Assembly (NCBI RefSeq): GCF_032062105.1
Contig: NW_026926569.1
Location: 186,001 to 250,000 of the forward strand
Length of the DNA: 64,000 bases
From: Saccostrea cucullata
Taxonomy: Eukaryota
Direction: 5' to 3'
The notes below the pieces were generated by a model. The model was not told the DNA's origin. It saw nothing but the letters and a program-made list of their open reading frames with translations, and did not search any database. Both the position numbers and the translations under genes were made by a program. Of this stretch, positions 18,105 to 24,100 are shown one piece after another. Numbering within the stretch: position 1 is the first letter of the stretch; each line of letters starts with the position of its first letter.

Positions 18105-21100
18105 ATGAGTAACATCGAGAAAGGCGACTTTGACAAGGAGGAGGAATATGCAGGAGTGTTTGATTTTGATAAGAATATCGGACATAATTCCGCTATGAAA
18201 AGAGAAGTTAGTCTCCTGACACCAATTGGGGGAGCAATTGGGATGTTTGGCCATGCTCTGCAGAATGCTTCAAGGAAAGTTCCATATTATACTAGTAAGT
18301 CTCACAAAGCAAAGACGTGCTCTTGTTAATTACAAACTTTTGAGAGTGGTATCAGCACTTGGCTTTAGGATGGTGTTTTTTGTGTATAACTATTGTCAAA
18401 TTGTGTTTTTCTATATTTGTCAGACATTGTCAGACTCTAAAGGAAGTGTCTATTGGCACGACGGTCGTGCGGATAAATTTCGTTATCCGCACGACGATCG
18501 TGCTAATAACAGTTCTTAACCGCACGACACAAGAGAGATAACTCTAACATTAATTATATCAACGCTGAACACTGTTCGTGGGGGAAATTATATATGTACA
18601 ACGAACGTATACTTTTTACCCCCCAACCAACGAACATATACTTTTCACCCCAACCAACGAACGTATATTTTTATTTTATTCTTCGTCGTGTCTAAATAAA
18701 TTGACACATATTTTTAAATATTATTCATCCTTTGTATTATTTAATTTGTTGTTGATATTGGAGCAAAAATTATACATATTATAACCTGTACACAAATATT
18801 TTTCTCATAATAATATACTTTCCTTTATTTACGGTCTTAATTAGTCTTTCCCTATTTTAATTCTCTCTCTTTCCTATTTCTTCTGAATACTTCATGTAAA
18901 AATTATAATATGGGTAAAATATTATGTCGAATTTTCCGTATTATTTTTTGAGACATTTACATGATGTAAGTCCCTAAGTGCCGCTGAAATTGTGCACGTG
19001 AATTGCGCCCACAGTCGAGAAATTGACCATGCGGTAAGTAGAACTGCGATAGTTTGAAGGATTCAAGTGTGAAAAACCTCACGGATTTTTAGACAGGGGT
19101 GACCCATAGTCCCCAAAATGATAGAGAGAATCCAGTATATGTTAATCTTGTTTTGTTTATAAATATGACATAAACATTCATTATAGTTGCATTTTAGTTA
19201 TATGTATACTGCATGTATAAAAATGTTTTGAATTTCCAAAATAACACCCCACCCCTGGCCTAAAAAATATAATAATCATGGTTAGCTTAAATTTATTCTA
19301 TGCTTTATTATTTTAATTGTTATGTACAGCACACAGGCACTTGTTTCAGAAATAATTTTTAAACCCATAGTATAATAGTAACACAAGGTGTTATTATAAT
19401 ACTATGGGTTTAATAATTATTTCCGAAACAAGTGCCTGTGGTACAGCATTATTTTACAAATAAGAAAACTATTACTGAGTATAAAAATGCGAAATTTTAT
19501 TTATTTAGAAAGGAACACAACTGTGAACGTTCTGAAAGAGGGTAACCTTGTTTGTTCTTTTATTATTACCATAGGGAGATCGTAATCTTGATTCCTATAT
19601 TATACTAGTTCATGTATCATATGGGTGTATATAAAATTAAAATTTGCGTGTCGTATTTCGAAAATAAAAATGCCGTTTTTTAAGGGGGGCCTTTCTTTTC
19701 TTTACTTCCTTTTTTTCTTGGAAAAATCATATCAGTGCAAAAAACGGCTAAATCACATTCAAAAAAAAAAAAAAAAAAAACTCTTGCATAGAAACTCCTG
19801 AAAAGTAAGCATGGAAAAAGGTAGGTCAACTTAATGTGGATGTCTAATAAATAAAATTTGTTTTGAGTTTCAACGTACAGAAGCAGAATGACATGTAAAA
19901 AATCATATCAGAGTAAAAATATAATACAAATAAACGTAAATTAATTTTGCAGTTTGTCGTGCGAATAACGTTTATAATTCGCACGACCGTCGTGCTGATA
20001 ACATCGGTAATAGCACGACCATTGTGCGGATAGCCTCAGCCGACTCTAAATGCTCTCTGCTAAAATAAGCATTTTTTAACCACATATTTCTGTATTTAAA
20101 AAGACACAATTTGCAACTCACCATCTTGGATTCCCTGGATGCCTTATTTCACACTTGATTTTATTCAACAGGTTGGGACCAATCGCCCAAATGGGATATA
20201 ATAGTCCGTTTGGGATATAATATCCCAAATGGGCTATAAATTTACAGTGCAAAAATTGAAAATTTTTATTTTGGCAATAAATATCATAAATCCGCATCAG
20301 AACACTTAAAAAGGAATAACTTTTGTGAAGCAAGTTTTTCTGCAACCCTACTGTTTTAAAGATTGATCCCCAAGAAGTTAAGGAACTTCCGAGGGATCAA
20401 TCTCATAAACAATGGGCATACAGGAAAACTTGTCAACCAAAAGTTATTCCTTTTTAAGTGTTCTGATGCGGATTTATGATATTTATTGCCAAAATAAAAA
20501 TTTTCAATTTTTGCACTGTAAATTTATAGCCCATTTGGGATATTATATCTCAAACGGACTATTATATCCCATTTGGGCGATTGGTCCCAACCTGTTCAAT
20601 ATCTACACTTTTCTTGTGTGGCGGTCAGCCGGGTTTGAGTGCCGGTGGCCAGATATAAGCTCAGTTTGTAGAGCACCTGACCGGAGTTTCAGGGGGCCCA
20701 GATTCGAATCCCGGTCTGGTTCACTGCATTTTCTCCTCTCCCGTTACATTTGGTGCCGTGCCATGCCCTGGAATTGACAGGTGAGAGGCCTGCCAGGGAT
20801 GAGCCTGGTTTGAGGACTTTGGAGGGCCAAAGACCTTTAAGGAGGGGGGAATATGGCAGTCAGCCGGGACCAGACATTTTCTTTGATAATCATTGGAAAT
20901 GCAAATGAAATACTACCTTTTAGTATCCAGAAAAATACCAATCTCTTTATGACTGGCCTATAAGTCGGACATAGAGTTTTAGACCAATATTTAACTCCCA
21001 ATATACCGACTTATAAGCGAGTATATAAGGTACTGCGATTGGGTATTGAAAGGTCGTGTCAAAGTTCATTTTCAAACAATGCTTTACTCGGATTGGTCAA

Positions 21101-24100
21101 TATCTTAACGAGCCACAAAAAATTCTCTTCTCGTTGAACCACGGCCTAAATGGGAGAGGATCATACATTTTAGCCATGGTTTGTGATGATGAGAGAGGTC
21201 AGAAACTGCGCAGAAGTTGTTCTCTGTAGACTGTGCAAATTTCTAGGATGCCTCTACAGTTTACATTAAACTTTAAAATTTACTTTAAAAAAAGTTTTCA
21301 AATAAAACCTTAAATTCAATGGATTTCTTTGTTTCTCAGGAATGGGAACAGTGGGCATTGGAAAGGCATGTTTAATCATGTTTTTGTTGGAGTCATGGAG
21401 GACATGGAATTACAAGAGATACACAAGGCGACATAAATTTGTTGAATTGTACTATGATGAGCATAAAGAGGATTTTCCACATATTGGTAAGTCAGTTAGT
21501 TTTAGTTTTAACCTTCCATACCAGTCAAAGCCAGTTAAATGCTGCAACCATACTAATAATCAGTACAATATGTAGTATATGAAATAATTGTACACTTTTA
21601 TTCATTTTTTAAGGTCATTCATATATAGATGCCATATGTAAATTAATAATTACAATACTTTTCATTTTGAACCCTCTTAAAGTACAATGTTTAAAGAAAG
21701 GATGAAAAATAAACTCGCAAAGAAATCTGGTTGATTTCTTTTTTGAAGATGATCTATTGCTATAAATTTGTTTCCATCCATCATTTTTCAAAAAGCATTG
21801 TCTTTTAAGCTTTTTATTTCTTCGCTTTGGCTTATCTAGAAATATTTGCTGATTTCATTTCATCCTTTTCTCGTTATGTAATAAAATATATATCTACTGA
21901 GACCTTAGTGTCTACCTCTATAATTATGATGCCACCAACCATGATGAAGACTTCAATACATATTTATAAAAACAACTTATTGTCAGCTCACTTTAATGAT
22001 AATCTACTAGACAGTGACATTCAATATAAATGAAATTAATTTAATCAATATCTTAATTATTGCAAAGATAATGAGAAATTGAGACAGGGAATTTAGTTTT
22101 ACTTTAAATTAAATATAAAGTGGCTTCTGTGTAAGGGGAAAAGGTTGTATAAGATATTAAGCATCAAGCTATAAGAAATACAAATTGTTTTAATGAGTTC
22201 ATAGCAATTGTTTGAAAAGCTGATCATTCAAGTTTTAGCAAGTATATTTATTAAAGGTGAATTGCTCATAGTATAATATTGCATATTTAACAAATATGTG
22301 AAAGATCTTCTCCAATATTCCTCTGACTCTTATCCCTGATTTTTATATAATATTGTGACATGTGCAGGGGTAAGAGTCAGAGGAATCTTGGATTAGTGAA
22401 AGATCATGTTTCATATTCATGATAAAATTTTCAAGTTTATTCTTAATTTCTTATAAAGAAATGTGTGAATTTCGAATTATGAATTTCAGTGCAGGATTGT
22501 TTTAACTTCACTGCAGATATTTTATTTTCTTGACTTCTTGGTTTCCCCATTGGGCAACAAGCAGATTGTCATTTGAATCTGTATATAATCCCCAAGGTCT
22601 ACTCAGTCCACAGTCTATGTAACTAAGGAACTGTCCATCCTGGTCTGTGATATGAATATAGAAATTTCTTATGTCTGCTGTAAGAATGTAACTCTGACTA
22701 TCGGTGGCAATTCCTAATGGACTGAATGGTGGGTTCTTTAGAATAGGGATATGTCCAGTGTATCTGAACCTCAGTTTCCCTGCTTGATTGACCACTACAA
22801 CTGCTTTTGCTTGACTGTCAGCCACACAGATATCCAAGTTCTTGTTTTCACTGATGTACTTCACATCGCCAGATGAATACAGTGGTTCACCATCATTGTT
22901 AAATTGAATAAACTGTTTCTCTGTGGAGCCAGAGTAACGGACAACCTGTGATTGGTTGCTTTCATCATTGTCCATGGTAACCACGAGGTCACCAGAGATG
23001 GAGGTACTGCAAACATTCAATGGTTTCCAGTTCTGTAGTTTGATCACAGTCTCAATTTCTTCATTCTTCACAATGTTAACGGATCTATCATGGGGATCAG
23101 TGTAAACAAGGTGGCCATGTTTTGTTATTGCTATGTCTTGAGGGATTTTCCTTGACTTGGTTGTGATTGATTTAATTAGTGAGCCATGTTTCAGGTTGTA
23201 AAGTTTCATGGTTTTTTCGTCTCCACTTGTCCAGATTTCTTCATCACTCAGACAGGCCACATTAGTTAGGTGGACTCTATACTCAGCTTTTAGGGTAGTG
23301 ATGATCTCTGGCTCACCAAGCAGCTGTTTAATTGTAGGAAAGCATCCAGGTTCTAGTGATTCTATTGTTTTATTGAAACTGTAACATTGTTCTTCTTCAT
23401 TTGAAGTAAGTTTTTCTGATGATATAGTTCCAAACAGTTTTAAAAGTTCTTCCCCTTTGATTGTTTGTGGAGTGAATTTAGATAAAAATGGTACAATTTT
23501 CTGTGGAAAATTTTTGTATTTATCTATATTATTTGTAAAACCTAATAGTTCTGAAATGTCATAGGAATCCATATCAACATCAGCTGAGTTAATGCCATCC
23601 TTTATTTCAGAAATTTTCTCCTTAATTTTGTCCAGATGTCTCTGTAAAGTTAGTATCTGTCTAGTTTTCGTCTTTTCGACATCAAAGTGCAATTGTTTGA
23701 TGGCTTGGTCAACCATTGTGTGCCATCGATTTATCCCCATGTTTTGTTATGGCTTTAGAGACATCTCCATTTTCCATTTCTAACTGTTCTATCATGTTTT
23801 CTACATCGGATGCAATGTCCAGGTAGGTTGGAAGAATAGTGTCATTTAATTCCTTCTGTTCTTTGATGAACCTTTCTTTGATTTTGTCCAGGATTTGCAA
23901 AATTTCTAAAATTTTGTGACCTGCATGTTGCAGGGATTCAACACAAGTACGACAGACAGGAATATTGCATTGATTACAATACATTTCACATTGTTTTTAG
24001 CTCACCTCAACGAAGTTGGGGGAGCTTATGTAATACCCTCGGCGTCGGCGTCGGTGTCGGCGTCGGCGTCGGCGTCCGTGTCGGCGTCGGCGTCCCAGGT

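What the first reader, a model, noticed from the sequence alone, without database searches (positions are those of the whole stretch)
20617..20877. Miniature LTR retroelement whose LTR is built around a tRNA cloverleaf
Seen: a 132-bp TG...CA unit holds a tRNA-like fold at 20647-20721 (acceptor GGCCAGA/TCTGGTT, D-stem GCTC/GAGC, CCTGA/TCAGG stem, TTCGAAT loop). It is followed after 2 nt by TGGTGCCGTG, complementary to a tRNA 3' end and resembling His-type primer sites, then about 80 bp of internal sequence, a polypurine tract and a restart of the LTR. Known: plant Cassandra TRIMs carry 5S RNA in their LTRs, and I recall tRNA-bearing LTR elements called Ajax being described from molluscs, so this may not be new. 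Inference: a Pol III-driven SINE/LTR hybrid mobilised by a Gypsy partner. It would easily be mis-annotated as a tRNA or SINE.
Basis: partly seen in the sequence, partly recalled or inferred. Interest (0 to 1): 0.7.

Follow-up and report, generated by a model that had tools for sequence, protein, structure and literature searches.

The report
Known oyster Helenus tRNA-LTR mini-retrotransposon
This is a broken copy of a small gene-less jumping element with a tRNA look-alike in each end repeat, already published in 2024 as the oyster family Helenus-1_SaGl; its sister copies show that it is likely primed by the host's histidine tRNA and likely borrows the enzymes of one particular Gypsy retrotransposon.

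Summary
It is a 3'-truncated, decayed copy (20617-20868) of Helenus-1_SaGl (Kojima 2024, PMC10886601). All five probes hit that consensus, and my measures (LTR 129, internal 103, total 361 bp, 4-bp TSD) equal its table row. Genome copies have two LTRs, 4-bp TSDs (20 of 26 exact) and tandem arrays. This scan has noted Helenus-type elements in other genomes.

Three points I did not find in print:
(1) Many copies have the 10-nt PBS rewritten to 17-19 nt of host tRNA-His, ending at A58; one copies 39 nt.
(2) Helenus LTRs are fused to one young His-primed Gypsy family at 5 independent sites, two inside a single 4-bp TSD. Its PPT matches at 15 of 16 bases.
(3) A second tRNA-His pairing site (anti-T-arm) lies behind a hairpin and recurs in oyster and scallop His-type families, a likely split PBS.

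Pol III transcription is untested; the RNA data were inconclusive.

The parts
20617..20748 (+). 5' LTR of a Helenus-1_SaGl copy (132 bp; family 129 bp, 3-nt insertion here)
20647..20721 (+). tRNA-like cloverleaf with box A- and box B-like motifs, each mutated in this copy; 8-nt anticodon loop
20729..20732 (+). T4 run just behind the tRNA-like part; possible leaky Pol III terminator (inferred)
   Evidence: T4 in 91 of 98 distinct Helenus-1/-2 LTRs, none with T5
20751..20760 (+). Primer-binding site, 10 nt complementary to the 3' end of host tRNA-His(GUG)
20766..20798 (+). Predicted internal hairpin between the two tRNA-pairing segments
   Evidence: predicted fold
20800..20812 (+). Second tRNA-His-complementary segment (variable loop and 5' strand of the T arm); 13 nt in intact copies, cut to 9 nt here by G>T at 20809
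   Evidence: published His-type families read by eye
20836..20851 (+). Polypurine tract with TTTAA lead-in; the family form is 15 of 16 identical to that of the candidate partner Gypsy A
20852..20868 (+). First 17 nt of the 3' LTR; the rest is deleted
20870..21032 (.). Neighbour, not part of the element: right-hand piece of a high-copy TIR repeat, joined by the deletion
   Evidence: 2166 first-look candidates; 7 of 7 copies examined go on further upstream
20169..20594 (.). Neighbour, not part of the element: palindromic MITE with a 5-bp TSD

Best explanation
The locus is a truncated, decayed copy of Helenus-1_SaGl, a 361-bp non-coding LTR retrotransposon whose RNA is likely made from the tRNA-like promoter in its LTR, likely primed by host tRNA-His through a split primer site, and likely reverse-transcribed and integrated by a His-primed Gypsy element ('Gypsy A'). 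Shown: the family identity; the LTR-PBS-PPT-LTR layout; 4-bp TSDs; LTR pairs up to 100% identical; copies carrying tRNA-His sequence that ends at A58; Helenus/Gypsy fusions, some inside one TSD. Inferred: Pol III starts near the tRNA +1 in the 5' LTR, partly reads through the T4 and ends at the T4 of the 3' LTR, so the tRNA-like part would be the R region. The RNA would be co-packaged in Gypsy particles. tRNA-His would pair at the 10-nt PBS and again behind a hairpin. Usually the element's own short PBS is kept. Now and then the plus-strand strong-stop DNA, carrying 18 nt of tRNA copy, would re-anneal further inside or on a Gypsy template, giving the rewritten and chimeric copies. The window copy itself is likely dead.
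For: Identity: 5 of 5 probes occur once in the supplement, all in Helenus-1_SaGl. Table S1 gives 129/103/361/TSD 4, as measured. The 3' LTRs of L010 and L018 look identical to the published consensus by eye.

Primer: ARAGORN calls tRNA-His at 3 of 6 loci from the pattern search. The canonical PBS matches 10 nt. A pattern demanding 17 nt found 25 places against 87 for the canonical junction. Of 20 examined, 18 have a Helenus-1 LTR, and all 20 stop at 17-19 nt, with several different re-entry points. Of 12 Helenus-2 places, 10 stop at 17-19 nt and two reach 33 and 39 nt. m1A58 is the plus-strand stop in HIV-1 (abstract of PMC8599865).

Partner: Gypsy A has the PR-RT-RH-IN order, LTR pairs 99.4-99.8% identical, a 19-nt His PBS, a PPT matching 15 of 16 and TGT...TTACA ends. 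Of 32 examined places that hold its internal start, 6 have a Helenus LTR in front (4 independent sites); L147 is a fifth site. L057 and L086 sit inside one 4-bp TSD; L147 has a TSD with one mismatch. Among 32 rewritten-PBS loci, Gypsy A follows the PBS in 4, Gypsy B in 1, and the other His-primed Gypsy C in none.

Second site: a 13-nt run, reached by 0.4-0.8% of 2000 shuffles in 3 intact internals. The 33-nt copy rejoins exactly there.
Against: No Pol III evidence. Oligo-dT unstranded reads are few (190-285 per run), mostly 90-95% alike, run into flanks and show no piled ends. The T4 in the 5' LTR should stop Pol III before the PBS unless it leaks, and several published families lack a T4 or carry T5-T6 (by eye). 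Whole-duplex energy for the second site is not better than shuffles (p 0.26-0.28). Two non-His published families have a 10-11 nt near-match right behind their own PBS. The 17-19 nt rewrites could come from Gypsy A's PBS rather than from tRNA; only the 33- and 39-nt copies exceed it, and the lower bound of 17 was set by my pattern. One TSD-flanked fusion is with Gypsy B, whose PBS is of another type (L058). L144/L145 has no TSD and L146 is cut. Only 1 of 3 Gypsy A copies has an exact TSD, 1 has one mismatch, 1 has none. No U3/R hybrid between Helenus-1 and -2 was seen among 98 LTRs, so R is not mapped.
Confidence: 0.8

Rival explanations
1. Same element, but transcribed by Pol II (LTR promoter or read-through); the tRNA-like part is a captured relic or a structural or processing signal.
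For: The T4 sits before the PBS in 91 of 98 LTRs. The RNA seen is passive read-through. Two compensatory acceptor-stem pairs separate Helenus-1 from -2, which hints that the fold matters, not only the boxes.
Against: Box A and box B are the best-kept parts across families (PMC10886601 section 3.5). U3 is only about 30 nt. Two fusion junctions enter the LTR within the first 7 nt of the tRNA-like part (L147, L058). The covariation is one divergence event, and 254 of 500 shuffles reach two pairs.
Confidence: 0.15
2. No fixed partner: Helenus is packaged by any active Gypsy, and Gypsy A only shows most because it is abundant or shares the PBS.
For: A TSD-flanked fusion with Gypsy B. My patterns select for His PBS homology, which favours Gypsy A.
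Against: 5 independent sites against 1; none with His-primed Gypsy C among 32 loci; PPT 15 of 16 identical to Gypsy A and unlike Gypsy C.
Confidence: 0.25
3. A tRNA gene or pseudogene, or a tRNA-SINE, next to chance motifs.
For: ARAGORN calls intact LTRs tRNA-like.
Against: 8-nt anticodon loop; two-LTR layout with 4-bp TSDs and no tails at 26 loci; exact published TRIM family.
Confidence: 0.01

Closest known systems
Helenus-1_SaGl (Helenus / TRIMp3; Kojima 2024, PMC10886601; read: whole main text, supplement parts 5-7 of 11, one Table S1 row, Fig. S2 rows)
   Same: Sequence (5 of 5 probes; young copies differ by 0-2 bases per part by eye), lengths 129/103/361, 4-bp TSD, His-type PBS, proposed Gypsy dependence.
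   Different: The window copy is 3'-truncated and at most 93% identical to its sisters. The main text names no S. glomerata partner (it cites Gypsy-39_CGi only for the shared His primer) and does not mention PBS rewriting, chimeras or a second pairing site.
Ajax (same paper)
   Same: TRIM with a small-RNA-derived LTR.
   Different: 5S rRNA promoter fragment, two nemerteans, 5-bp TSD, tRNA-Leu primer. Not this element.
Cassandra (as summarised in PMC10886601)
   Same: Non-autonomous, small-RNA gene in the LTRs, tandem arrays.
   Different: 5S rRNA, plants; Pol III transcription shown there, not here.
Bipartite PBS of yeast Ty1 and Ty3 (passages of PMC5371799)
   Same: Acceptor stem and T arm of the primer pair with separate segments; the genomic PBS is normally not inherited from the tRNA.
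   Different: Autonomous elements primed by tRNA-iMet, shown biochemically. Here the split is predicted, with a hairpin of about 33 nt between the segments.
biv-TRIM (PMC6934838; read part 1 of 5)
   Same: Bivalve TRIM with solo and tandem forms.
   Different: 202-218 bp repeats, no clear PBS, no tRNA-derived LTR mentioned in the part I read.

Membership tests
Helenus (TRIMp3) | Non-coding, under about 1.3 kb, two LTRs | tested here: met
   360-362 bp single units at 21 of 26 loci and 3-LTR arrays at 5 (L024 continues into a Helenus-2 unit); the window copy keeps only 17 nt of the second LTR
Helenus (TRIMp3) | tRNA-derived sequence with box A and box B in the LTR | tested here: met
   both boxes carry a mutation in the window copy
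Helenus (TRIMp3) | PBS complementary to a host tRNA 3' end, and a PPT | tested here: met
   tRNA-His(GUG), 10 nt; PPT
Helenus (TRIMp3) | 4-bp TSD (animal Helenus) | tested here: met
   20 of 26 exact, 4 with one mismatch, 1 of 5 bp, 1 unresolved; not scorable in the window copy
Helenus (TRIMp3) | Functional Pol III promoter | tested here: inconclusive
   poly(A), unstranded reads only, no defined ends; also unvalidated in the source paper
Helenus-1_SaGl | Sequence identity to the published consensus | tested here: met
   string search, lengths, by-eye comparison; no computed alignment to the consensus
Ajax | 5S rRNA-derived promoter fragment in the LTR | tested here: not met
   Rfam scan gives tRNA and no 5S at E up to 1
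Ajax | 5-bp TSD and tRNA-Leu PBS | tested here: not met
   4-bp TSD and His PBS
tRNA-SINE | tRNA head at the 5' end, simple-repeat tail, no LTRs | tested here: not met
Gypsy/Ty3 (candidate partner Gypsy A) | pol order PR-RT-RH-IN, LTRs, PBS, PPT | tested here: met

The most novel reading that the evidence does not exclude
The oyster genome keeps a readable record of how a Pol III-type TRIM parasitises its helper. His-primed bivalve Helenus use a split primer site (acceptor end, hairpin, anti-T-arm) kept from oysters to scallops. About a fifth of the LTR-internal junctions counted carry the copied tRNA-His end. Repeated fusions name one young Gypsy family as the main helper, although their LTRs share almost nothing but their ends.
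Probability: 0.6. Interest if true: 0.45.

Novelty: already known. Interest (0 to 1): 0.28.

Why it matters
The element itself adds nothing new: the family is published and the window copy is a broken one. It matters for annotation, since intact LTRs are called tRNAs. The side results bear on a question the source paper leaves open, namely how TRIMp3 elements depend on a helper with unrelated LTRs. Here shared primer, PPT and ends, plus recombinant insertions, point to a named helper and to testable cis signals.

Tried and rejected
Self-priming by the LTR's own tRNA-like end: rejected. Its 3' end is not complementary to the PBS (sequence), and rewritten copies match host tRNA-His.

A tRNA-like piece in the Gypsy A LTR as the source of Helenus: a BLAST overhang suggested it, but it is microhomology only, and ARAGORN finds none in 5 Gypsy loci.

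Mapping the R region from Helenus-1/-2 hybrid LTRs: none among 98 LTRs.

Empty-site allele of the window copy: the query was swamped by the neighbouring repeat and no allele appeared among 40 scored.

Covariation of the cloverleaf: 2 compensatory pairs between two families, not significant.

Expression: Helenus reads look like read-through. Gypsy A has 73, 87 and 10 reads in three poly(A) runs, depth about 1-3, and DNA carry-over was not excluded. Neither counts as evidence.

Other structured RNA in the LTR: no ribozyme family at E up to 1.

Horizontal transfer: not needed. Helenus-2_SaGl-like copies and a Helenus-5_SaGl-like fragment are also in this genome (by eye), which fits an oyster close to Saccostrea.

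An earlier-findings search by sequence gave nothing.

Full report
Observation. The window holds no other copy. ARAGORN finds no tRNA in the window; Rfam gives a sub-threshold tRNA match.

Family. The genome (G000, 1.17 Gb) gave 86 matches from 40 scored of 1081 candidates. I analysed the 30 loci returned, minus the window itself and 3 duplicates. In the 26 left, units are 129 + 103 + 129 bp and five loci are 3-LTR arrays. LTR pairs are 92-100% identical (100% in 4). TSDs are 4 bp and exact in 20, have one mismatch in 4, are 5 bp in 1 and unresolved in 1. Intact LTRs are called 'tRNA-???' with an 8-nt anticodon loop. The window copy has a 3-nt insertion and a change in each promoter box. It was cut by a deletion that joins LTR position 17 to the interior of a TIR repeat; 7 of 7 copies of that repeat go on further upstream.

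Identity. A paper search found Kojima 2024 (PMC10886601), whose main text I read whole. Helenus has tRNA-derived LTRs and includes 51 bivalve families; Ajax has 5S-derived LTRs in nemerteans. Five probes each occur once in the supplement, all in Helenus-1_SaGl. Table S1 lists 129, 103, 361 and TSD 4, and Fig. S2 places it among the His-primed families. So the family is already known. The host is likely an oyster near Saccostrea; this is inferred from the shared families. The window's NHL, C1q and RCC1 genes fit a bivalve by my recall.

Primer. Host tRNA-His(GUG) genes are present (3 of 6 loci called by ARAGORN). The normal PBS pairs for 10 nt. A pattern for a longer match found 25 places against 87 exact canonical junctions; both counts are exact-match lower bounds. 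I examined 20 of the 25: 18 have a Helenus-1 LTR (16 sites; two arrays were counted twice). All 20 match the tRNA for 17-19 nt and never more, then re-enter the internal region at several different points or enter foreign sequence. The pattern forces 17 nt, so only the upper limit is informative; base 19 from the tRNA end is A58. For the sister family Helenus-2, 10 of 12 places stop at 17-19 nt and two go on to 33 and 39 nt. m1A58 is the plus-strand stop in HIV-1 (abstract of PMC8599865). In Ty1 and Ty3 the PBS is normally not inherited from the tRNA (passages of PMC5371799), which would explain why the short PBS persists in most copies. Caveat: the 17-19 nt form could also be copied from a Gypsy PBS. 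The 39-nt copy is longer than any Gypsy PBS match I saw (19 and 34 nt).

Second pairing site. Behind a predicted hairpin, intact Helenus-1 and -2 internals have a 13-nt run complementary (G:U allowed) to the tRNA-His variable loop and T-arm 5' strand. It is reached by 0.4-0.8% of 2000 shuffles; whole-duplex energy is not significant; the window copy keeps 9 nt (p 0.24). The 33-nt copy rejoins the element exactly there. Reading the 51 published bivalve internals by eye, 15 have a His-type PBS. Of these, 8 match the 12-nt core fully (oysters and scallops), 4 have one mismatch and 3 have more. Among the other 36 I saw no full match, but two have a 10-11 nt near-match directly behind their own PBS. 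A string search found 4 occurrences, all in His-type families; line breaks hide others. This resembles the bipartite PBS of Ty1/Ty3 and is a prediction.

Partner. Two rewritten copies run into coding sequence. One led to 'Gypsy A', with 39 matches, PR-RT-RH-IN order, near-identical LTR pairs, a 19-nt His PBS, similar LTR ends and a PPT 15 of 16 identical to Helenus. Of 32 examined places with its internal start, 25 have its own kind of LTR, 6 have a Helenus LTR and 1 has another. The 6 are 4 sites, since L064/L086 and L144/L145 share flanks. L147 is a fifth: Helenus-2 LTR, PBS, Gypsy A 3' end and part of its LTR, then a switch back into Helenus at the start of the tRNA-like part. L057 and L086 lie inside one exact 4-bp TSD, and in L086 the outer LTRs are identical. 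The junctions checked show short homologies, as expected for template switches in a shared particle (inference). Against exclusivity, L058 is a TSD-flanked fusion with Gypsy B, which has a different PBS. His-primed Gypsy C follows none of the 32 rewritten-PBS loci.

Transcription. Not resolved. A T4 follows the tRNA-like part in 91 of 98 LTRs, never T5, so a Pol III transcript must leak through it once. Of 24 runs listed I laid 4; poly(A) reads are few, diverged, unstranded and run into flanks.

Literature check. Searches for Helenus/TRIMp3 since 2023 (20 of 25 listed), TRIM chimeras with partners, m1A58 with retrotransposons and oyster TRIMs showed no paper on these three points for Helenus. 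Two citing papers only mention the group (passages); the latter describes TRIM chimeras and template switching in sugar beet. Subscription journals and Repbase entries were not searchable, and I did not read supplement parts 1-4 and 8-11 in full.

Verdict. Real, already known, low novelty. The mechanistic side results are of moderate specialist interest.

Noticed in passing
window 20169-20594: Palindromic MITE (91% self-complementary, CAGG...CCTG ends), 513 first-look candidates; a 5-bp TSD at 9 of 9 distinct copies read by eye. Superfamily not determined.
   Followed up: partly
window 20870-21032: Right arm of a high-copy element with TIRs of about 28 bp, joined to the truncated LTR by a deletion.
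   Followed up: partly
window 22311-22392: 28-bp inverted repeat with a 26-nt spacer; only sub-threshold miRNA-model hits, probably a small MITE.
   Followed up: no
window 22508-23746 (-), 53-63 kb (-), 43-48 kb (+), 9-18 kb (-): NHL/beta-propeller ORF, a cluster of C1q-domain genes, RCC1-repeat exons, and a multi-exon gene that looks like a PRMT9-type methyltransferase (label recalled; no Pfam hit for the two pieces scanned). The element lies between that gene and the NHL ORF.
   Followed up: partly
L060 (G000:C6189): His-primed Gypsy copy with 608-bp LTRs 99.8% identical whose PBS matches tRNA-His for 34 nt.
   Followed up: partly
L135, L140, L142, L144-L146, L024, L046: Frequent hybrids and mixed arrays of Helenus-2 LTRs with Helenus-1 internals, so the two families recombine.
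   Followed up: partly
L034 and other hits: A second repeated tRNA-like class ending like tRNA-His but not called by ARAGORN; possibly a SINE head.
   Followed up: no
L059 8257-8794: Two His PBS copies 438 bp apart behind a non-Helenus repeat of about 100 bp; perhaps another short LTR family.
   Followed up: no
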